Positions 624 through 32,485 of a DNA stretch of 64,000 nucleotides are shown piece by piece. The notes under the pieces are model-generated. The model was given only the letters and a program-made list of their open reading frames with translations, did not search any database and had not been told where the DNA came from. Made by a program: the position numbers and the translations under genes. Source of the DNA: Candidatus Woesearchaeota archaeon (GTDB lineage Archaea; Nanobdellota; Nanobdellia; Woesearchaeales; GW2011-AR4); contig JACPMR010000011.1 of NCBI GenBank assembly GCA_016185945.1, positions 633-64,632 on the forward strand. The letters are read 5' to 3'. The stretch's first letter is position 1; each line of letters opens with the position of its first letter.

Positions 624-663
624 AAATCAAGATTATCCTAAAACTCTATAAAAAATTTCCTCT

Positions 664-843
664 TTAGTGGCTCAGTTTAGCCTGCCTTTCACCCTTTTCT
701 TCCTTAATTGGCTTGCCTTTGTGCCATCCAGAATAATACATTATTGACTTTTCCTTTCTTACTTTAAAAATCGGCTTCTTTTTCTTTTTGGCTTTCTCTT
801 TTTCAACTTCCTTTTCCAGAATTTTCAAGAGATAATTGTCCAT
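664..843 (-). CDS. Small lysine-rich hypothetical protein (59 aa), immediately downstream of FTR1 on the same strand.
   Basis: Manual ORF: MDNYLLKILEKEVEKEKAKKKKKPIFKVRKEKSIMYYSGWHKGKPIKEEKGERQAKLSH. Below the 60-aa ORF-track cutoff. No homology recognised. Confidence 0.2.
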   Translation of the reverse strand: MDNYLLKILEKEVEKEKAKKKKKPIFKVRKEKSIMYYSGWHKGKPIKEEKGERQAKLSH

Positions 844-852
844 TGCTATAAT

Positions 853-1674
853 TTATGCACTAACCTTAACCCTAGAATTCTCAATCCTTCTAAATAGATA
901 GAATATAATTCCCAAATAAGAAGCATATGCAATCACTTCCAGCAGGCTTGGGTTTCCATTGTAGCCGAACAACCCTTTCAAAAAGCCTCCAATCAATCCT
1001 TTTTCGCTCAAGATATTGTTTATGTCAAACAAAGGAGATATTATGCCGCTTACTACTCCTGCTTCCTCAAACTCGTGGATTCCATGCGCCACTAATCCGG
1101 CTGCAAACAAAATAAGCAAAATGCTGCTGATGTTAAATAATTTTTTCAGGTTAATCTTTCTTGTGCTTACAAAAAACAAATAGCCAACGATAATGGCAGC
1201 AACAATTCCCAAAGTACCTCCAATGAGATTAATTCCGCTCGCATAATTAATCGCATTTAGGAAAATAACAGTTTCAATGCCCTCTCTTATGATTGCGATA
1301 AATATAAGCATGAATATGCCTATATGAGAAAATAATGGCTGTGTGCTCATCAGATGCTTCTCAACCTTTCCTTCAATCTCTTTTGCAATGTGCCTTTGCT
1401 GCATCATCCAAAGAATCATTGTCGTAAGCAAAAAAGCACCAATCAGCATTGTGATTCCTTCAAAAATCTCCTCTGCCTTTCCTTCAAAGCCGCCGGCAAA
1501 AAACATGAAAAGCATTGCAGCAATTATGCTTGCAAGAACCCCAAAAACAATGCCATAGTAAACTGTTTTCCTGTAATTTTGATTATTGGTTTTGTTCAAG
1601 TAAGCAAGAACTATGCCGACAACCAAGCTTGCTTCCAATGTTTCCCTTGATGTTACTAAAAATGATTCAAGCAT
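853..1674 (-). CDS. FTR1/EfeU-family high-affinity iron permease.
   Basis: Two REXXE motifs (SRETLEA, IREGIET) in a polytopic membrane protein. Start moved to the internal Met (MLESFL...) because the longer ORF-track N-terminus overlaps an upstream small gene in another frame. Confidence 0.75.
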   Translation of the reverse strand: MLESFLVTSRETLEASLVVGIVLAYLNKTNNQNYRKTVYYGIVFGVLASIIAAMLFMFFAGGFEGKAEEIFEGITMLIGAFLLTTMILWMMQQRHIAKEIEGKVEKHLMSTQPLFSHIGIFMLIFIAIIREGIETVIFLNAINYASGINLIGGTLGIVAAIIVGYLFFVSTRKINLKKLFNISSILLILFAAGLVAHGIHEFEEAGVVSGIISPLFDINNILSEKGLIGGFLKGLFGYNGNPSLLEVIAYASYLGIIFYLFRRIENSRVKVSA

Positions 1675-7304: not shown

Positions 7305-7497
7305 CTGTTATATTTATTTTGCAGTATATAAATTTTTTGGAGGATTTAAGCAGATTGTGTTAAATGGGTTCCATCAAGCGGCATAAACCTTTAACATTTA
7401 GGGATGATATACCAGTATTGGTATACACAATACTGAATACCACCAGACAATAAAACCAGCACAACCTTTTTAAACCACTACTTTTTACGATGTGCGG

Positions 7498-9588
7498 GTG
7501 AAAAAATTCAGAACATTAAAAAGACAGAAAATACTAGTAACATCTGCATTGCCGTACGCCAACGGGCCGATCCACGTAGGGCACCTAGTTGAATACATAC
7601 AGACAGACATATTTGTCAGATTTCTAAGATTAATTGAAGAAGATGTTTTGTATGTCTGCGCTGACGACACCCACGGAGCGCCTATTGAAATAAAGGCAGC
7701 AGAGTTAAAAATAACCCCAGAGCAATTAATTGCAGATGTCTATAAGGAGCATGTTCAGGACTTCAAGGATTTCTCAATCAGCTTTGACAATTACTACACA
7801 ACAAACAGCCCGGAAAACAAGCATTACAGCGATTTAATATTCCTGAGATTAAAGAATAAAGGCTACATTTACACAAAAGACATTGAAGTTACTTATTGCG
7901 AAAACTGCAAGAGAACATTGCCGGACAGGTATGTCAAGTGAAAATGCCCAAAGTGCAATGCCCCTAATCAATATGGGGATGTTTGCGAGCAATGCAATGC
8001 AGCTTACAAAACCATTGATTTAATAGAGCCGTATTGTGCAATATGCAAAAACAAGCCAATCAGAAAAACTTCAACCCACTATTTCTTCCAATTAAGCAAA
8101 TTCTCAAAAAAGCTTGAGTCATGGCTGACAAAAAACAAAAACTTGCAGCCGGAAGTAAAAAATTTTGTCCTGAACTGGATAAAAAATGGATTGGAGGACT
8201 GGAACATAAGCAGGGACGGCCCTTACTTTGGCTTCAAGATTCCAGGGGAAGAAAACAAGTACTACTATGTTTGGCTCGATGCCCCAATCGGCTACATTGC
8301 AAGCACCGATAATTATTGCAAGAAGCACGGCTTGAAGACAGAAGATTACTGGAACAGCAAGGATGCGGGAATCTATCATTTCATCGGAAAGGACATTACT
8401 TACTTCCATCTCTTGTTCTGGCCTGCAATGTTGATGGGTGCTGATTTTGAATTGCCTCAAAGCGTTTATGTCCATGGCTTTTTGACAGTCAACGGCGAGA
8501 AGATGAGCAAAAGCCGGGGAACTTTCTTCACCGCAAGGGAATTTCTGCAAAAATACAACCCGGAATATCTTAGGTTTTACTATGCGAGTTTGTTGAGCAG
8601 GAATTTGTCGGATATAGATTTAAGTTTTAATGATTTCAGGAAAAAAATCAATAATGAATTGGCTTCAAACATTGGAAATTTCTGCTACAGGGTTCTGAAT
8701 TTCCTGAACAAGCATTTTGGCGGGCAGGTCAATGGCTTGGACAATAACAAGCAACTAACCAATGAAATCAAAGAAAAAATCAAAAACATTGAAAAAAATT
8801 ATCATGACTTGAATTTCAATGAAGCTGTCAAGGATATATTGCATATTTCTTCGCTCGGCAACAAGTATTTCCAGGAAAGCGAGCCATGGAAATTGATTAA
8901 AGAAGACAGAGAAAAAGTTAATAAAATTCTTGGCTTGTGCGTGAATATTGTCAAAAATTTAAGCATTTTAATACAGCCAATTCTGCCGGATTTTTCGTCA
9001 AAGCTGCAGCAGCAATTAAATCTCAAAAACCTTAACTGGAGCAGCCTTGGTTTTGAACTGAAAAAACATAAAATAGGAAAAGAGGAGATTTTAATCAATA
9101 AAATTGAGGAGGAAGGGCAAAAGCCGATATTCCCGCTTAATTTAAAAGTTGCAAAGATAGTTGAAGTAAGGCAACATCCGAATGCCGACAAGCTCAGCGT
9201 CTTGGATATTGACTTAGGCGCTGAAAAAAGGCAGATAGTTGCTGGATTAGTTGGACACTACTCAAATGAGGAATTGAAGAACAAAAAAATAATTGTAATA
9301 ACCAATTTGAAATATGCAAAGTTAAGGGGGGTTGAAAGCCAGGGAATGCTGCTTGCCGGCGACGACGGAAAGAATGTCGGCTTATTAACTGTTGAGAAAA
9401 GCAATCCCGGCGACAGGGTTTATTTTGAAGGGTACGAAACAGGCAGGGAAGAAACAAGCTTTGACAGCTTTCAGAAGATAAGGATGCATGTGCAGAGTGG
9501 CAAGGCATATTTTGAAGGCAGGGAATTGAAAACAGACAAGGAGATTGTAAAAGTGGAGAAAGCAGCAGACGGAGCAAGAGTCAGATAG
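7498..9588 (+). CDS. metG: Methionyl-tRNA synthetase with a C-terminal EMAP/Trbp111 tRNA-binding domain. The reading frame is interrupted by a single in-frame TGA at 7939..7941 (ORF-track fragments 7492..7941 and 8143..9588 are one frame).
   Basis: HIGH motif PYANGPIHVGH; KMSKS motif; zinc knuckle KCPKC...CEQC colinear with E. coli MetRS; tRNA-binding C-terminus. TGA aligns to the conserved Gly of VKGTCPKC. Confidence 0.85.
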
Positions 9589-22114: not shown

Positions 22115-22936
22115 ATGGGCTTCAAGTTTGTTATAAAAAACGGAGAATTAATAGAGAAAGAAAAAGCAAATGTTTCGGTTTACAACAAATCATTATTTTT
22201 TGATTTTGCTGTTTATTCCAACTTGAAAATTATCCAAGGCAAAATGTTTTTGCCTGAGATAGAAATAGCAAAATTGCTCGAATCCGCGAAAGAGATTGAA
22301 TTAAAGCACAATTTTAAACAAAAACAAATTATTGAATGGGCTAAAATTCTAATCAAAGAAAATAATATTCAAGATGCCCTGATAAGAGTCTTGCTGATTG
22401 GCCCTGAAAAGGGTGCAGAGCCGTTGCTTTTCCTGTTTCCTCTTGGATTAACCTTCTATCCCGATAAGTTATACAAGCAGGGCGCCAAGGTAATAACATA
22501 CCATGGTGAAAGGTTCATGCCCGCATCCAAGACAAAAAATCTCCTTATGAGCTACATTGCATACCGCGAAGCAGAAAAAAATGGTGCAATTGATGCTTTG
22601 TTGATTGATAGAAAAGGCAACATAAGAGAAGGCACAAGAACAAGCTTTTTCGTGATAAAATATGATACATTGATAGCTCCTCCTAAAGAGAAAGTGCTGC
22701 CTGGAGTAACAAGAAAGGTTATTTTTGATATTGCACCAAAAATAATGAAAGTCAAAGAAGAGGATATACCATTATCAAAAATAAAAAACTATGATGAGCA
22801 CTTCATAAGCGGAACTACAATAAAAATCATGCCAGTTAGTCAAATAGATGATACAGTTTTAAGAAAAGGAGTCGGTGAAAAGGTTAAGATGCTGCAGAAG
22901 ATGTTTAAGGAGTATGTTGATGATTATGTTAATTAA
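22115..22936 (+). CDS. PLP fold-type IV aminotransferase (branched-chain/D-amino-acid aminotransferase or ADC-lyase family).
   Basis: EGTRTSFF and LPGVTR motifs. Confidence 0.7.
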   Translation: MGFKFVIKNGELIEKEKANVSVYNKSLFFDFAVYSNLKIIQGKMFLPEIEIAKLLESAKEIELKHNFKQKQIIEWAKILIKENNIQDALIRVLLIGPEKGAEPLLFLFPLGLTFYPDKLYKQGAKVITYHGERFMPASKTKNLLMSYIAYREAEKNGAIDALLIDRKGNIREGTRTSFFVIKYDTLIAPPKEKVLPGVTRKVIFDIAPKIMKVKEEDIPLSKIKNYDEHFISGTTIKIMPVSQIDDTVLRKGVGEKVKMLQKMFKEYVDDYVN

Positions 22937-23409
22937 ATATCCACCACAACAACCGCCTTCCACTTATTTTTTTCTTTTTTCACTTCAAACATATGCATAG
23001 TGACTGCCTTAATGTCATTCTCCAATTGTTGTTTTTGGGGATTGATTCCTTCGCCTTCAAGGACTGCTTTCAAATGATATTTTTTGTTTTCCTTTATAGA
23101 AACCTTAACTTTCTTAAAAACCATATATTTCGAATCCTTCAAGAAAAGAATTTCGGAAAGAAAATCATACAACAAATTTTCAATCTTATCATTTTCAAAT
23201 TCAAATTCAATTTTTTCCTTTGCATCAACTGTGTCGAGATTTGCGCTTAGCTCAAAAATCGCCATTGCAGCATTTTCAAACAATTCGTTCAAGTCCTTGC
23301 CGTATGCCTCATATGCTACGTCAGCGATTGCCACGTCTTCCAAGAACTTGTATTTTTTCCTGTCGTTGTTTATGTTCATTTTAATGCCCCTCAAAAAATC
23401 TGCCGACAA
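22933..23409 (-). CDS. Archease (RtcB activator).
   Basis: ADVAYEAYGKDLNELFENAAMA matches the archease N-terminal signature. Confidence 0.7.
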   Translation of the reverse strand: MSADFLRGIKMNINNDRKKYKFLEDVAIADVAYEAYGKDLNELFENAAMAIFELSANLDTVDAKEKIEFEFENDKIENLLYDFLSEILFLKDSKYMVFKKVKVSIKENKKYHLKAVLEGEGINPQKQQLENDIKAVTMHMFEVKKEKNKWKAVVVVDI

Positions 23410-24763: not shown

Positions 24764-26266
24764 CTAACCCTTCACATTCCCCACGGGCTTCAATCCAACA
24801 ACAGGCATAGAAATTCCCGCCTCTGCAACCGCATTTATTACATCATTAATATTTTTGTATGCAAAACCAGCTTCTTCAGCCAACCCCGACATTGAGATTG
24901 CTTTCACGTAAATCCCTCTTTTCTCCATGTCTCTCTGCAACTGCTCGCCTCTGACTTGCCTTTTTGCAGCAGCCCTTGACATTGTACGTCCGCTCCCATG
25001 TGCCGTACTCCCGAAAGTCTCGTCCATTGCCTTTTGGGTTCCGACAAGCAAGAAACTTCCAGTTTCCATTGAGCCTCCTATTATTACAGGCTGCCCTGTT
25101 TCCTTGTAAAGTTTTGCAAGTTCAGGATGATGCGGGGGAAATGCCCGTGTGCTTCCTTTTCTGTGCACAACAACCTTTTTTTTGTGCCCGTCAATAACAT
25201 GCTCTTCAAGCTTTGCAATGTTATGCGCGACATCATAAACCATGTGCATCTCCAATTTTTCTGCTTCTGTCTTGAAAACTTTTGAGAATCCTTCCCTTAT
25301 CCTGTGCAAAATAACTTGCCTGTTAGCAAATGCCATATTGGCTGCGCACGCCATTGCCTTGTAATAATCCTGCCCTTCATTGCTCTGGAATGGAGCGCAT
25401 GCAAGCTCCCTGTCATAAACTTCAATGCCGTATTTTTTCATTGTTCCTTCAAAAATTCTTAAGTAGTCAGTCCCAATCTGATGCCCGAATCCTCTGGAGC
25501 CGCAATGCACCATAATAACAACCTGCTCTGGCTGGGTAATTCCAAATTTTTTTGCAAGTTCTTCGTCAAAAATGTTTTCTGCCTTTACAATCTGTATCTC
25601 AAGATAATGGTTGCCAGAGCCCAAAGTTCCTAATTGTTTAATCCCTCTTTCCATTGCCTTTGAGCTTACTTTCTCCGGCTCAGCCCAGTCAATCCTGCCA
25701 TAGCCTTCAGTTCTTTCCAAATCCTCTGTCCAGCCATAGCTGTTTTCAATACACCATTTTGAGCCATATGTCATTATTTCCTTGAATTGCGATCTGCTTG
25801 CATCCACAAATCCTCTTGAGCCGACACCGGCAGGAACTGTCCTGAACAAAGTGTCAACTAATTCCCTTAATTTTGGCTGTACTTCTTTGTAGGTTAGATT
25901 TGTTGTAACAAGGCGCATGCCGCAGTTGATATCAAACCCGACTAAGGTTTAAATTCCTCCGGGTGATATCACGCCAGTCTCAGCGTCAAAAGCTGCAACG
26001 CCGCCAATGGGAAAACCGTCAAGGGCTGAATAAGAGTTTTTACTTACTCAGAATCCCCAGTGCCCATCTGGCATGCAGAATGCATATTTCTGGATTCCTG
26101 GCAAACAAGCTACATTTGTTACCTGATTAAATACACCTTCATCCATTTCCCTAAGAAGTTTTTCGGTTGCATAAATACGTGCAGGAACAAGCATACCTTT
26201 CTTATAGCTCATAGGTATTTCCCACACAGTTTTATCTACCCGCTTCATAGGTGGAAGCTCTGCCAT
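24764..26266 (-). CDS. rtcB: RNA-splicing ligase RtcB. Frame interrupted by two small in-frame insertions, each introducing a stop codon (TGA at 26048..26050, TAA at 25949..25951). ORF-track fragments 26048..26266 and 24764..25918 are one frame.
   Basis: MPDGHWGF[*VSKNSYSALD]GFPIGGVAAFDAETGVISPGGI[*TLV]GFDINCGMRL... is colinear with the archaeal RtcB consensus once the bracketed 33-nt and 12-nt segments are removed. Confidence 0.85.
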
Positions 26267-29773: not shown

Positions 29774-29816
29774 AACGAAACTATTTTAAATTATTGCTAG
29801 TTCTGTCTCTTTTAAT

Positions 29817-29989
29817 GGGGCAGTAGCTCAGCCTGGGTATTGAAGCAGGCTTAGCCGGGCTTTCCTTCAGGAAAGAGCACACAACTTTTCCAGTTGGCTT
29901 AAACGGCTGAAGACGGTATTTTGAGCAAAGAAATTTGCAATGAAATGTCCGATACCGTGGAGTCAGGAGTTCAAATCTCCTCTGCCCCA
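29817..29989 (+). tRNA. tRNA-Phe(GAA) with three introns: 36 nt in the D-loop (29838..29873), 22 nt in the anticodon-stem 5' strand (29883..29904), 41 nt in the anticodon-stem 3' strand (29915..29955). CCA not encoded.
   Basis: Joining the exons gives GGGGCAG-TA-GCTC-AGCCTGGGA-GAGC-A-CACGG-CTGAAGA-CCGTG-GAGTC-AGGAG-TTCAAAT-CTCCT-CTGCCCC-A, with all four stems pairing. ORF-track 29781..29990(-) is a spurious overlap. Confidence 0.75.
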
Positions 29990-30039
29990 CTCTTAATATT
30001 TTTGAATTTTTTTATTAATTATTTTAAATCAACCATCAT

Positions 30040-30277: not shown

Positions 30278-32485
30278 CTAAGCACTTAACGTAGCCGTCA
30301 ATATCCTTCCAGCAATTATGTTGAACAATAGCATCACAGCAGCGGATATGAAAACATAGAGTATTGTGCTTCTTATCAAATTGTTTCCAAGTTCAAATCT
30401 CTCGTTCAATTTATCCGAGCCGTTCTCAACGCCATTTGCAATAATAGTCAATATGAAAGTAATTTGCACCACATAAACACCGACTATTAGCTGAAAGTAA
30501 TAGGTTGGGATCCCCTCTCCAAACAAGCCCAGTATACTTGTAGGCGCTGCTGTGTCTGCTCCGCTGACAGACGCTGTGACCTGCTGCAATTGCCCGCTTA
30601 ATTTTCCAAGTATTGCTGTTATCATAGATGTTATTCCAATCACTACCCCTGCAATTGCAGGGGTCAAAAACTTAATCTGGGAGTGCATCGAAGCAATAAT
30701 GTCAGCCATCAAGTCCTTCAATCTTTCATTTACGCGATGAATTTCCTTAATATAACGTGCAACATTTGTCAATGCCTGCGCTGCAATCAATGGTCCTTTC
30801 TTAATCGCCTGCGTCAGGACTTTCATTGAGCTTTCAATCAGATTGCTGGGAAATGAAACCAAAGCGCCATGCATTGGGTCAAAAATCGCCTTTTCGATGC
30901 TCATTCCAAGTCTTCGTATATTCAAGCTTACCAATTGGAAAAAGCTTCCTGATACAGTTCCCTCCATAACATCAGCAACTTTGCCAACTGCTATCTCAAC
31001 AGGAAGATTATCGCCCAGTCTGTTGCCTAGCTGAAACAATGCATTTGCAAACTCAAGCTCAAGCTGCTTTGCCTTTTCCCTTATCTTTATGATGTTCTGC
31101 GATTTAAGCCTGTAATAAAACCCAAGCGCGACTCCCAACCCCAAAGGTATGAACAGGCTTGCAATAGCAGCCCCTAAGCCGTAAGGACCAAGCTCCTGGT
31201 TTGTTGTGGCGCTTGTCCTGTATTCCAAAAAGCAGTACCTCTGCTTGCAGGATGTTGTCAAATCTTCTCCTCCAAAACCAAAATCAGGAACGCCAATTGC
31301 ATGAAATATCAACGGGCTTGCTCCAATTAAAAACAATGCAGCGCAGACAAACACGCTAATAATTGCAGGAGTAACCTGCACTTCTTTTTTTCCGATTTTT
31401 ATCAGTATGTTCCTGTACTTCTTAAGTTCGGGATTTTCTTCTGCAATATCTGTATCTCCATAGCCAGTGGGCCTTGTTGAAAGAATATTCCTTCCCAAAT
31501 AATAAACAACCACAGTCAAAATAACATTGTAAATAACGGCAAGATGGTACCACTTCACGTCTTCCATAAAGCTCACGACAAGCGGCAAAATAACCAAGCC
31601 AAGAATCGGCAGGATAATTCCCAACATGTGCAGCATTGTAATGGGGTTCTGCAAATTGTGGGCGTAGTGCAGCATCTTTTCGTATGTTTCGTCAAGAATA
31701 ACGTCAAGCGCCTTGTCAAGCGCATTCAATCTTCTTGCCTCGTCTCCTTCATACAGAGAGCTTTCAATCAAGTGAAACGCCTCGATGAACTCAATATTCC
31801 ATTTCTTCCATGTATCAAGATAAAAGTCCAGAGACTCTTTTACAGAGGCGTATTTTTCAGTCTCGACATCCCAAAGCACTTTCTTCAAGTCAAGCGACAA
31901 AGGGGGCACAAGATGCTGGCTTGCAAACTCAATTGCCCTTTCAAGATTTGAGGTGTGCCTCATGTATGTAACAACATAAAAGATGCACAGCACCATCTGG
32001 TTGCTTGCCTTCAGGCGCCAGTTGTTGGCGATGAACTCGGGAACTCTTCCTAGAGGCTTTATAAGAATTACGGCACCAATTAAAAACAACAAAACAAAAA
32101 AGATGGATTGGAAAATTAAAAATGCAAGCAAAGAGCTGACTAAAGCCACAGCCAAAGGTATCAAAAGTGAGAATGAAACGGCTCCTGCTGGAGTGATGTT
32201 AAGATGCGTTATGTTGATTGATTCCTGCAAAACATCTGCGGTTTTTTTATCAGGCTTAATCTTAAGGATTTTTTCGCTTAAATTGCAGAGCTTCTCGTAC
32301 AAGCCCATGTGCTTTGGAAGAAATTCAGCCTTGAATTCCTGGTACTCCTTTGTTGTAGGCTGCTCCGGATGGCTTTCAAGCTTCGCTCCCAGCTCTTTCT
32401 CTAGGTGCTTCTTGTAAATCTCCATTAAAGACAACAACTTCTGCTTGTCTATTTCGGATGGCATTGTAGAAAAATTATTTTTCAC
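30278..32485 (-). CDS. Large polytopic membrane protein of the FlaJ/TadC/GspF platform family for archaeal type IV pilus-like machinery.
   Basis: 735 aa with multiple TM clusters separated by cytoplasmic helical domains; adjacent to the FlaI-like ATPase. Confidence 0.55.
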   Translation of the reverse strand: MKNNFSTMPSEIDKQKLLSLMEIYKKHLEKELGAKLESHPEQPTTKEYQEFKAEFLPKHMGLYEKLCNLSEKILKIKPDKKTADVLQESINITHLNITPAGAVSFSLLIPLAVALVSSLLAFLIFQSIFFVLLFLIGAVILIKPLGRVPEFIANNWRLKASNQMVLCIFYVVTYMRHTSNLERAIEFASQHLVPPLSLDLKKVLWDVETEKYASVKESLDFYLDTWKKWNIEFIEAFHLIESSLYEGDEARRLNALDKALDVILDETYEKMLHYAHNLQNPITMLHMLGIILPILGLVILPLVVSFMEDVKWYHLAVIYNVILTVVVYYLGRNILSTRPTGYGDTDIAEENPELKKYRNILIKIGKKEVQVTPAIISVFVCAALFLIGASPLIFHAIGVPDFGFGGEDLTTSCKQRYCFLEYRTSATTNQELGPYGLGAAIASLFIPLGLGVALGFYYRLKSQNIIKIREKAKQLELEFANALFQLGNRLGDNLPVEIAVGKVADVMEGTVSGSFFQLVSLNIRRLGMSIEKAIFDPMHGALVSFPSNLIESSMKVLTQAIKKGPLIAAQALTNVARYIKEIHRVNERLKDLMADIIASMHSQIKFLTPAIAGVVIGITSMITAILGKLSGQLQQVTASVSGADTAAPTSILGLFGEGIPTYYFQLIVGVYVVQITFILTIIANGVENGSDKLNERFELGNNLIRSTILYVFISAAVMLLFNIIAGRILTATLSA

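What the first reader, a model, noticed from the sequence alone, without database searches (positions are those of the whole stretch)
29817..29989. tRNA-Phe(GAA) with three introns, two of them inside the anticodon stem strands
A 173-nt gene. Removing 36 nt (D-loop, 29838..29873), 22 nt (29883..29904) and 41 nt (29915..29955) yields a 74-nt tRNA in which all four stems pair perfectly. The anticodon loop is CTGAAGA (U33, GAA, purine 37), and the sequence closely resembles archaeal tRNA-Phe (AGCCTGGGAGAGC D-arm, GAGTC variable loop, TTCAAAT T-loop). The intron sum of 99 nt equals exactly 173-74. Introns within anticodon-stem strands and the D-loop are non-canonical positions, characteristic of Thermoproteales- or DPANN-type archaea, and require a splicing endonuclease that accepts relaxed BHB motifs.
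Basis: seen in the sequence. Interest (0 to 1): 0.75.

Follow-up and report, generated by a model that had tools for sequence, protein, structure and literature searches.

The report
Three-intron tRNA-Phe gene, Woesearchaeota
This is a real phenylalanine tRNA gene of a tiny groundwater archaeon (Woesearchaeota), broken up by three short protein-spliced introns; this kind of gene is known, but its close relatives carry up to five introns in changing positions.

Summary
Window 29817..29989 (+) is a 173-nt gene, and removing 36 + 22 + 41 nt gives a perfect 74-nt tRNA-Phe(GAA). It is the only place in the 64 kb, on either strand, that combines a T-arm with a matching acceptor stem.

Orthologous genes in 10 related genomes (Ca. 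Woesearchaeota where named) splice in silico to the same 74-nt tRNA, with compensatory stem changes. Each window intron is missing, exactly at its junction, in at least one ortholog.

Two placements need correcting. Junction repeats allow three equivalent positions for the 22-nt and 41-nt introns. Bulge-helix-bulge (BHB) geometry picks 27/28 (29881..29902) and the canonical 37/38 (29913..29953), not 29/30 and 39/40. The 36-nt intron sits at 20/21 in the D-loop.

The likely mechanism is cleavage by the archaeal splicing endonuclease at relaxed BHB motifs, then ligation by RtcB. RtcB and Archease are encoded 4-7 kb away.

This is a new member of a known kind. The wider picture is more unusual:
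- Eight intron sites occur in this one tRNA across close relatives, three to five per gene.
- The canonical intron carries a conserved K-turn-like module.
- The window's own rtcB gene has two apparent BHB mini-introns.

The parts
29776..29791 (+). Putative archaeal promoter (BRE/TATA-like CGAAACTATTTTAAAT; the TTTTAAAT starts at -33 from G1)
   Evidence: The element cGAAAgtnTTTTAAAT is conserved upstream of the orthologous genes. It lies at -31 to -34 in genes without the 4/5 intron and at -43 to -46 in those with it. Function is inferred and not tested.
29817..29837 (+). Exon 1: tRNA positions 1-20 (acceptor 5' strand, D-stem 5' strand, D-loop up to G20)
29838..29873 (+). Intron 1, 36 nt, position 20/21 (D-loop). 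Relaxed BHB: H = CCTG (29832-35) / CAGG (29868-71), 4/4; bulges GG|T and AA|A; imperfect inner hairpin
   Evidence: The placement is unique. L003, L008, L014 and L029 have a contiguous AGCCTGGGAGAGCAC. The same intron is present in L002, L005 and L018.
29874..29880 (+). Exon 2: positions 21-27 (AGAGCAC)
29881..29902 (+). HBh' motif: H = GAGC (29875-78) / GCTT (29897-900), 4/4; h' = CAACT/AGTTG, 5 bp; bulges AC|A and AA|A
   Evidence: One search gives 4/4 at 27/28 against 1/4 at 28/29 and 29/30. The MFE fold of the whole precursor reproduces this motif. L008 and L018 have a contiguous GAGCACACGGCTGAAG. h' shows compensatory changes in L007 and L014.
29903..29912 (+). Exon 3: positions 28-37 (ACGG CTGAAG; anticodon GAA at 29909-11)
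29913..29953 (+). Relaxed hBHBh': h = anticodon stem; H 3/4 (C32-G, U33xC, G34-C, A35-U); bulges AG|A and AU|A
   Evidence: L007, L012, L029 and L031 have a contiguous GGCTGAAGACCGTGG.
29921..29945 (+). K-turn-like module inside intron 3: UU-GA (29923-24), C-stem GCAAA/UUUGC with GAAA loop (29925-38), bulge AAU (29939-41), GA (29942-43), then AA
   Evidence: GA/GA and the third bulge nucleotide (U) are invariant in 8 intron variants. The C-stem is 100% paired with 2 covarying pairs. Positions 3 and 4 of the other (non-canonical, NC) stem show compensatory changes. L7Ae binding is not tested.
29954..29989 (+). Exon 4: positions 38-73 (A38, anticodon stem 3' strand, variable loop GAGTC, T-arm, acceptor 3' strand, discriminator A73). 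CCA is not encoded
29999..30013 (+). T-rich tract after the gene (TTTTT, TTTTTTT), the likely archaeal terminator
   Evidence: Read directly. T-runs also follow the orthologous genes. Inferred.
24764..26266 (-). Context: rtcB (tRNA-splicing ligase), itself interrupted by two apparent BHB mini-introns (26020..26052, 33 nt; 25942..25953, 12 nt)
   Evidence: Pfam RtcB, E = 2.8e-143.
22933..23379 (-). Context: Archease (RtcB cofactor)
   Evidence: Pfam Archease, E = 4e-41.

Best explanation
This is a functional tRNA-Phe(GAA) gene of a Ca. Woesearchaeota (DPANN) archaeon, interrupted by three short protein-spliced introns at positions 20/21 (36 nt), 27/28 (22 nt) and 37/38 (41 nt). Inferred pathway: the gene is transcribed from a BRE/TATA promoter about 30 nt upstream and ends at an oligo-T tract. 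The archaeal splicing endonuclease (EndA) cuts each intron at a pair of 3-nt bulges separated by a 4-bp helix. It cuts after the second bulge nucleotide, that is after 29837/29873, 29880/29902 and 29912/29953. RtcB with Archease joins the four exons. The ends are then trimmed and CCA is added. Two of the motifs lack the outer helix (HBh' type) and the third has a mismatch in the central helix, so the enzyme must tolerate relaxed BHB substrates. Shown here: the gene, the exact removable segments, the BHB geometry and its conservation, and the presence of RtcB and Archease. Inferred: the actual cleavage, the order of splicing, and the endonuclease type.
For: (1) The spliced product is a perfect 74-nt cloverleaf with U33, GAA, G37, G20 and A73.
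(2) It is the only T-arm/acceptor combination in 128 kb of searched strand.
(3) Eleven orthologous genes all splice in silico to 74-nt tRNA-Phe(GAA). Their stems show compensatory changes: GGGGCAG/CTGCCCC vs GGGGCGG/CCGCCCC vs GGGGCGT/ACGCCCC, and five different T-stems.
(4) Each window intron is absent, exactly at its junction, in some orthologs.
(5) At the chosen placements H is 4/4, 4/4 and 3/4, with h' = 5 for intron 2 and h = 5 for intron 3.
(6) Across 38 distinct introns at 8 sites in this gene family, 84.5% of cells pair in the BHB register. Registers slid by 1-3 columns give 28-46%, and shuffles give 45% (0/500 reach the observed value).
(7) RtcB and Archease are encoded in the window.
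(8) The acceptor and T-arm persist in the MFE fold of the precursor, and the fold reproduces intron 2's BHB; z = -2.9.
(9) The literature documents multi-intron BHB tRNAs in archaea, and DPANN EndA variants linked to increased tRNA gene disruption (PMC3239211, PMC5829648, PMC8450103).
Against: No RNA evidence is available. EndA is not encoded in the 64-kb window: all 67 ORFs of 70 aa or more were scanned and none matched tRNA_int_endo. Intron 1 has only 1 in-register pair of h' and no h. Intron 3 has a U-C mismatch in H, and RNAfold prefers another intron hairpin by about 9 kcal/mol. A fold with all three BHBs formed lies 19 kcal/mol above the MFE. The rtcB gene needed for ligation is itself interrupted by in-frame stops unless it too is spliced.
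Confidence: 0.9

Rival explanations
1. Same gene and same mature tRNA, but cleavage occurs at the reader's placements: 29/30 and 39/40, inside both anticodon-stem strands.
For: These placements give the identical 74-nt product. They cannot be told apart from DNA presence/absence alone.
Against: In BHB geometry these placements give H = 1/4 and 2/4 with h and h' of 0-1. The alternatives give 4/4 (h' = 5) and 3/4 (h = 5, h' = 2). The same preference holds in every ortholog. In L002 and L008 the 37/38 intron has no equivalent shifted placement.
Confidence: 0.04
2. A decayed or non-functional tRNA pseudogene that has accumulated insertions and is not spliced.
For: There is no expression data. L005, a relative, has a copy that lacks the 5' exon. 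The thermodynamic folds do not favour all three BHBs.
Against: All four stems are perfect and the identity elements are intact. The promoter element is conserved. Orthologs across species with 78-88% identity in the neighbouring protein keep a 74-nt product with compensatory stem changes, and every insertion keeps BHB geometry. No other tRNA gene of any kind was found in the window.
Confidence: 0.04
3. ARAGORN's intron-mode parse: a class II tRNA-Leu(TAA) with one 77-nt intron at 37/38 (29817..29990).
For: It is the only call ARAGORN makes when run in intron mode on the raw sequence.
Against: The parse has a 97-nt product, a D-stem with non-Watson-Crick pairs and a poorly paired variable arm. 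It ignores the exact presence/absence of the three segments in orthologs. All orthologs resolve to tRNA-Phe.
Confidence: 0.01
4. The insertions are self-splicing (group I/II) introns or mobile-element remnants, not endonuclease substrates.
For: None specific.
Against: The lengths are 22-41 nt. No Rfam intron family matches even at E up to 10. The junctions obey BHB geometry.
Confidence: 0.01

Closest known systems
Multiple-intron tRNA genes of Thermoproteales (Pyrobaculum, Thermofilum, Caldivirga), found with SPLITS/tRNAscan-SE
   Same: Up to three short BHB introns per gene. Canonical and non-canonical positions are mixed (D-loop, anticodon stem, T-loop). HBh'/hBH motifs are relaxed. Intron sequences are similar between sites, which has been read as transposition (PMC4033280, PMC8450103; here).
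   Different: The lineage is different (DPANN Woesearchaeota, 37% GC, groundwater) and presumably the endonuclease type is too. Within this clade the same tRNA has eight alternative insertion sites and up to five introns per gene.
Disrupted tRNA genes of ARMAN-2 (Ca. Micrarchaeum) and other DPANN with EndA loop insertions (epsilon2, or alpha4 with the L3 loop)
   Same: A DPANN archaeon with non-canonical introns, e.g. 59/60, and relaxed BHBs. The literature notes that DPANN tRNA sets are incompletely predicted, probably because of such genes (PMC3239211, PMC5829648).
   Different: Three-intron (and, in relatives, four- and five-intron) genes were not described there. The EndA of this organism was not seen, so its type is unknown.
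Intron-rich tRNA genes of the Asgard lineages Atabeyarchaeia and Freyarchaeia (2024)
   Same: More than 90% of tRNA genes have introns and over half have several. Supplementary Data 4 lists a three-intron tRNA-Phe(GAA) and genes with four introns (PMC11291895).
   Different: The superphylum is different. That study did not report species-level presence/absence mosaics of one orthologous gene, or five introns.
Box C/D guide RNA in the euryarchaeal pre-tRNA-Trp intron (from my own knowledge, not checked here)
   Same: A canonical 37/38 intron carrying a K-turn-type element. An alternative 7-bp helix (29913-19 / 29952-58) would put C39 opposite the fifth nucleotide upstream of the D'-like UUGA.
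   Different: The intron is only 37-41 nt and has one K-turn module. It has no complete C/D plus C'/D' boxes and no 12-nt spacers. This feature was tested and not met, so it is not a member.
BHB intron in crenarchaeal cbf5 pre-mRNA
   Same: The two short insertions in the window's rtcB gene contain in-frame stops, obey BHB geometry and are absent from an ortholog, like the cbf5 intron (PMC2738675).
   Different: The gene (the splicing ligase itself) and the lineage are different. One intron is only 12 nt. Splicing has not been demonstrated.

Membership tests
Archaeal endonuclease-spliced (BHB) tRNA intron | Removal restores a canonical cloverleaf tRNA | tested here: met
   The product is a 74-nt tRNA-Phe(GAA) with all stems paired. 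The same holds in 10 orthologs.
Archaeal endonuclease-spliced (BHB) tRNA intron | Both splice sites lie in 3-nt bulges separated by a 4-bp helix (H) | tested here: met
   H is 4/4 (20/21), 4/4 (27/28) and 3/4 (37/38). The register is specific across 38 introns: 84.5% paired against 28-46% when slid.
Archaeal endonuclease-spliced (BHB) tRNA intron | Flanking helices h and h' of at least 2 bp (strict hBHBh') | tested here: inconclusive
   Intron 2: h' = 5, h = 0. Intron 3: h = 5, h' = 2, with a mismatch in H. Intron 1: h = 0 in register (the D-stem is offset by 2 nt) and h' = 1, followed by an imperfect hairpin. These are relaxed motifs, not strict ones.
Archaeal endonuclease-spliced (BHB) tRNA intron | The genome encodes EndA and an RNA ligase | tested here: inconclusive
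   RtcB and Archease are present. No EndA was found among the window's 67 ORFs. The rest of the genome was not available.
Archaeal endonuclease-spliced (BHB) tRNA intron | Spliced RNA and excised (circular) introns are detectable | not testable with these tools
   No transcriptome data were available.
tRNA-Phe | Anticodon GAA with U33 and a purine at 37, discriminator A73 and G20 (identity elements known from yeast and other systems; from my own knowledge) | tested here: met
   Read directly from the spliced sequence and ARAGORN's assignment.
Split or permuted tRNA gene | Exons encoded at separate loci or in permuted order | tested here: not met
   All four exons are colinear within 173 nt.
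K-turn (L7Ae-binding) motif | A canonical (C) stem, a 3-nt bulge, tandem sheared G-A/A-G pairs, then a non-canonical (NC) stem | tested here: met
   The sequence pattern is present and conserved in 8 variants of two intron subtypes. The C-stem covaries (GCA/UGC, GUC/GAC, GCC/GGC) and NC positions 3 and 4 covary. Only sequence and covariation were tested.
K-turn (L7Ae-binding) motif | Binding by L7Ae and a kinked geometry | not testable with these tools
   This needs a gel shift or a structure.
Intron-encoded box C/D sRNA (tRNA-Trp type) | C, D', C' and D boxes with guide spacers of about 12 nt | tested here: not met
   There is one D'/C'-like module. The C-like (anticodon loop) to D' spacing is about 7 nt and the C'-to-D-like spacing is 2-3 nt (read). 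No Rfam C/D family hit covers the intron; the only weak C/D-box hits lie outside it.

The most novel reading that the evidence does not exclude
This Woesearchaeota clade may be undergoing active spread of BHB introns. One orthologous tRNA-Phe gene uses at least eight insertion sites (4/5, 14/15, 18/19, 20/21, 27/28, 37/38, 46/47, 59/60) with three to five introns per gene. The five in L031 exceed the three to four I found reported. Introns at different sites share sequence, as if copied between sites. The same kind of intron has entered the mRNA of the splicing ligase RtcB, so that making the ligase would depend on splicing, a possible feedback loop. The canonical intron carries a K-turn that could recruit L7Ae to fold or regulate the precursor.
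Probability: 0.4. Interest if true: 0.8.

Novelty: new member of a known kind. Interest (0 to 1): 0.5.

Why it matters
Standard finders miss this gene entirely. Genomes of this group would therefore appear to lack tRNA-Phe, and completeness or genetic-code inferences for DPANN MAGs would be distorted. The orthologs give a rare species-level snapshot of BHB intron gain and loss in a single gene, with exact empty sites, which is the kind of evidence asked for in reviews of tRNA intron origin (PMC4033280). If the rtcB mini-introns are real, they would extend archaeal pre-mRNA splicing beyond cbf5. They would also link the expression of the ligase to its own activity.

Tried and rejected
- ARAGORN with default settings and Rfam at gathering threshold found nothing. 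Rfam at E up to 1 over the whole window gave only two weak, unrelated hits.
- ARAGORN in intron mode gave a tRNA-Leu(TAA) parse, rejected on structure and on the comparative data.
- An unrestricted scan for BHB geometry inside the gene was too noisy to use alone. It became informative only once restricted to placements that give the tRNA.
- The exact-protein look-up of the adjacent GNAT gene found nothing.
- The one metagenome scan, with a degenerate 3'-end pattern, returned a single unrelated contig, L006.
- Loci L019-L024 have lost synteny and carry no tRNA-Phe at this position.
- A search of L005 for the missing GGGG 5' exon found nothing.
- The idea that intron 3 is a complete box C/D guide RNA was rejected on box spacing.
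- No EndA was found in the window.
- MFE folding does not recover the BHBs of introns 1 and 3. Thermodynamics alone therefore neither proves nor refutes them; the comparative evidence carries the argument.

Full report
**Observation**

Deleting the three stated segments (36, 22 and 41 nt) leaves a 74-nt sequence. ARAGORN calls it tRNA-Phe(GAA), with 7/4/5/5-bp stems fully paired, anticodon loop CUGAAGA, discriminator A73 and no encoded CCA.

Standard tools miss the gene:
- ARAGORN with default settings finds no tRNA in the 64 kb.
- Rfam finds nothing at gathering threshold.
- With relaxed thresholds, Rfam recognises only the acceptor and T-arm, through the tmRNA model of the tRNA clan, spanning 29817-29992.
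- ARAGORN in intron mode forces a poor tRNA-Leu(TAA) parse with a 77-nt intron.

I scanned both strands for a T-arm followed by a 3' acceptor strand whose complement lies within 450 nt upstream. That scan returns one hit, exactly 29817..29989. The signal is real and is not a chance match.

**Source organism**

- The window is 37% GC.
- The 735-aa membrane protein just downstream (30278..32485, minus strand) is 100% identical to a protein of a Candidatus Woesearchaeota MAG on a 71.9-kb contig. It has thousands of homologs, and those that carry a name are mostly labelled Woesearchaeota or Nanoarchaeota.
- Nearby genes include an OB-fold Ssb-like protein, a TrmO-like protein, a GNAT, a type IV ATPase, RtcB and Archease.

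**Comparative evidence**

An exact-match scan of species-representative genomes with the 3' end of the tRNA found five loci. I then followed homologs of the membrane protein into public assemblies, which gave more syntenic loci.

In eleven genes (the window plus ten others) I could delimit all exons. Every one splices in silico to a 74-nt tRNA-Phe(GAA). The acceptor and T stems vary by compensatory changes, as expected for a functional tRNA.

The intron sets differ from genome to genome:

| Locus | Intron positions |
|---|---|
| window | 20/21, 27/28, 37/38 |
| L002 | 4/5, 20/21, 27/28, 37/38 |
| L003 | 14/15, 27/28, 37/38, 46/47 |
| L007 | 18/19, 27/28, 46/47 |
| L008 | 14/15, 37/38, 46/47, 59/60 |
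| L012 | 4/5, 18/19, 27/28, 59/60 |
| L014 | 4/5, 27/28, 37/38, 46/47 |
| L018 | 4/5, 20/21, 37/38 |
| L029 | 4/5, 27/28, 59/60 |
| L031 | 4/5, 18/19, 27/28, 46/47, 59/60 (five introns) |
| L025 (more distant) | one 13-nt intron at 37/38 |

Each of the three window introns is therefore absent, precisely at its junction, in some ortholog:
- AGCCTGGGAGAGCAC is contiguous in L003, L008, L014 and L029.
- GAGCACACGGCTGAAG is contiguous in L008 and L018.
- GGCTGAAGACCGTGG is contiguous in L007, L012, L029 and L031.

L008 and L031 yield the identical mature sequence from different intron sets.

**Where exactly the introns lie**

The 36-nt intron has a unique placement at 20/21. Because of junction repeats, the 22-nt and 41-nt introns can each be placed at three positions that give the same product.

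I scored the canonical geometry: cleavage after the second nucleotide of each 3-nt bulge, a 4-bp helix H between the bulges, helix h outside and helix h' inside.

| Intron | Placement | H | h | h' |
|---|---|---|---|---|
| 22 nt | 27/28 | 4/4 | 0 | 5 |
| 22 nt | 28/29 or 29/30 | 1/4 | 0 | 0 |
| 41 nt | 37/38 | 3/4 | 5 | 2 |
| 41 nt | 38/39 | 1/4 | 0 | 1 |
| 41 nt | 39/40 | 2/4 | 1 | 1 |

The same preference holds in every ortholog. The 41-nt intron is the canonical one.

I then put 38 distinct introns from all eight sites into one geometric register. In that register 84.5% of H and h' cells pair. Registers slid by 1-3 columns give 28-46%, and column shuffles give 45% (0 of 500 reach the observed value). 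All eight pairs show changes on both sides.

One caveat: where several placements were equivalent I chose the best one, which gives a modest upward bias.

**Quality of the three window motifs**

- **Intron 2** is a clean HBh' motif, and the MFE fold of the whole precursor reproduces it.
- **Intron 1** has a perfect H (CCUG/CAGG) and a 3' bulge next to the D-stem. Its 5' site lies in a looser internal loop, and forcing the motif costs 3 kcal/mol.
- **Intron 3** has the anticodon stem as h and a proper 3' bulge (AU|A). It has a U-C mismatch in H, and RNAfold prefers another intron hairpin by about 9 kcal/mol.
- Forming all three motifs at once lies 19 kcal/mol above the MFE.

Splicing is therefore probably ordered or assisted by proteins. 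This last point is inference.

**Mechanism**

The best-supported model is the standard archaeal pathway. EndA cleaves at the BHB motifs and RtcB, with Archease, ligates the exons. Both RtcB and Archease are encoded 4-7 kb upstream.

EndA is not in the window. The literature reports DPANN alpha4-type enzymes with an extra L3 loop, associated with increased tRNA gene disruption, and incomplete tRNA predictions in DPANN genomes (PMC5829648).

A conserved BRE/TATA-like element sits about 33 nt upstream, and T-runs follow the gene.

**Comparison with what is known**

Multi-intron BHB tRNA genes are well known in Thermoproteales. Reviews and the tRNAscan-SE 2.0 paper give three as the maximum per gene (PMC3239211, PMC4033280, PMC8450103). 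A 2024 study of Asgard archaea lists three-intron tRNA-Phe genes and genes with four introns in its Supplementary Data 4 (PMC11291895).

The window gene is therefore a new member of a known kind, in a lineage where such genes are barely documented. In the searchable literature I found no report of five introns in one tRNA gene, and none of this species-level mosaic. That absence is limited to the held library.

**Extras found along the way**

1. *K-turn-like module in intron 3.* The intron carries a conserved module: GA, then a stem capped by GNRA or a similar loop, then a 3-nt bulge ending in U, then GA. Both stems covary across two divergent intron subtypes. A complete box C/D guide is excluded by the box spacing.
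2. *Sequence shared between sites.* Introns at different sites share sequence above shuffled controls (scores 25, 25 and 23, against a null maximum of 20 in 3000 shuffles). This is compatible with copying between sites.
3. *Interrupted rtcB gene.* The window's rtcB has two short insertions containing in-frame stops.
   - The 33-nt insertion (26020..26052, minus strand) has H 4/4 and a 9-bp h'. It is also present in L002 and L008 and absent from L007.
   - The 12-nt insertion (25942..25953) has h of 5 bp and H 4/4.
   - Removing both restores a 485-aa ORF reading WGYGFP and GGIGFD, as in the uninterrupted ortholog.
   - The only confirmed archaeal pre-mRNA BHB intron I could find cited is in cbf5 (PMC2738675).

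**Verdict**

On its own, the gene is an ordinary though undetected example of a known class. The intron dynamics of the surrounding clade and the rtcB mini-introns are the parts worth following up.

Noticed in passing
window 24764..26266 (-); insertions at 26020..26052 and 25942..25953: The rtcB (tRNA-splicing ligase) gene is split by two short insertions (33 nt and 12 nt) with in-frame stop codons. Both obey BHB geometry (H 4/4 with h' 9 bp; h 5 bp with H 4/4). Removing them restores a continuous 485-aa RtcB matching the uninterrupted L007 ortholog. The 33-nt one is also in L002 and L008-L011. These are putative pre-mRNA BHB introns in the ligase's own gene.
   Followed up: partly
L031 4099..4307 (-); also L002, L003, L008, L012, L014: Orthologous tRNA-Phe genes carry four introns (L002, L003, L008, L012, L014) or five (L031: 4/5, 18/19, 27/28, 46/47, 59/60). 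All have BHB geometry and all splice to a 74-nt tRNA-Phe. Five exceeds the maxima I found in the literature (three; four in a 2024 Asgard supplement).
   Followed up: yes
window 29921..29945 (inside the 37/38 intron): A conserved K-turn-like module: tandem GA/GA, a 3-nt bulge, and a GNRA-capped C-stem that covaries. It is a possible L7Ae binding site. An alternative 7-bp helix, 29913-19 with 29952-58, competes with the anticodon stem.
   Followed up: partly
L005 about 640..855 (+): The tRNA-Phe gene of this Woesearchaeota MAG lacks the 5' exon GGGG. The conserved promoter element is fused directly to the 3' end of the 4/5 intron. This could be a deletion or pseudogene, an assembly artefact or a split gene. 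The 5' piece was not found in the 8 kb held.
   Followed up: partly
window 7492..9588 (+), TGA at about 7939..7941: The methionyl-tRNA synthetase reading frame is continuous except for one in-frame TGA, in ...DRYVK*KCPKC. From my memory of E. coli MetRS, it falls where that enzyme has Gly. TGA ends 17 of 45 other ORFs, so global recoding is unlikely. It is a sequencing error, a pseudogene or local read-through.
   Followed up: partly
L014/L015/L017 4920..5663 (+; L017 4463..5206) and L029/L030 4128..4772 (+): A LAGLIDADG-like ORF (weak or faint Pfam hits) lies immediately next to the tRNA-Phe gene, between it and the membrane-protein gene, in some relatives. It is outside the tRNA and on the opposite strand. 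L031's upstream ATPase gene carries an intein with a LAGLIDADG domain.
   Followed up: no
introns of the tRNA-Phe orthologs (e.g. L003 14/15 vs L012 4/5; L002 20/21 vs L007 27/28): Introns at different insertion sites share 13-19-nt stretches, at scores above every one of 3000 shuffled comparisons. This suggests that introns are copied or moved between sites, as proposed for Thermoproteales.
   Followed up: partly
L001, L003, L004 record titles: Three GTDB-representative MAGs labelled 'uncultured Methanosarcinales archaeon' carry this Woesearchaeota-type locus, with 78-86% protein identity and synteny to the window. Their taxonomic label is probably wrong.
   Followed up: no
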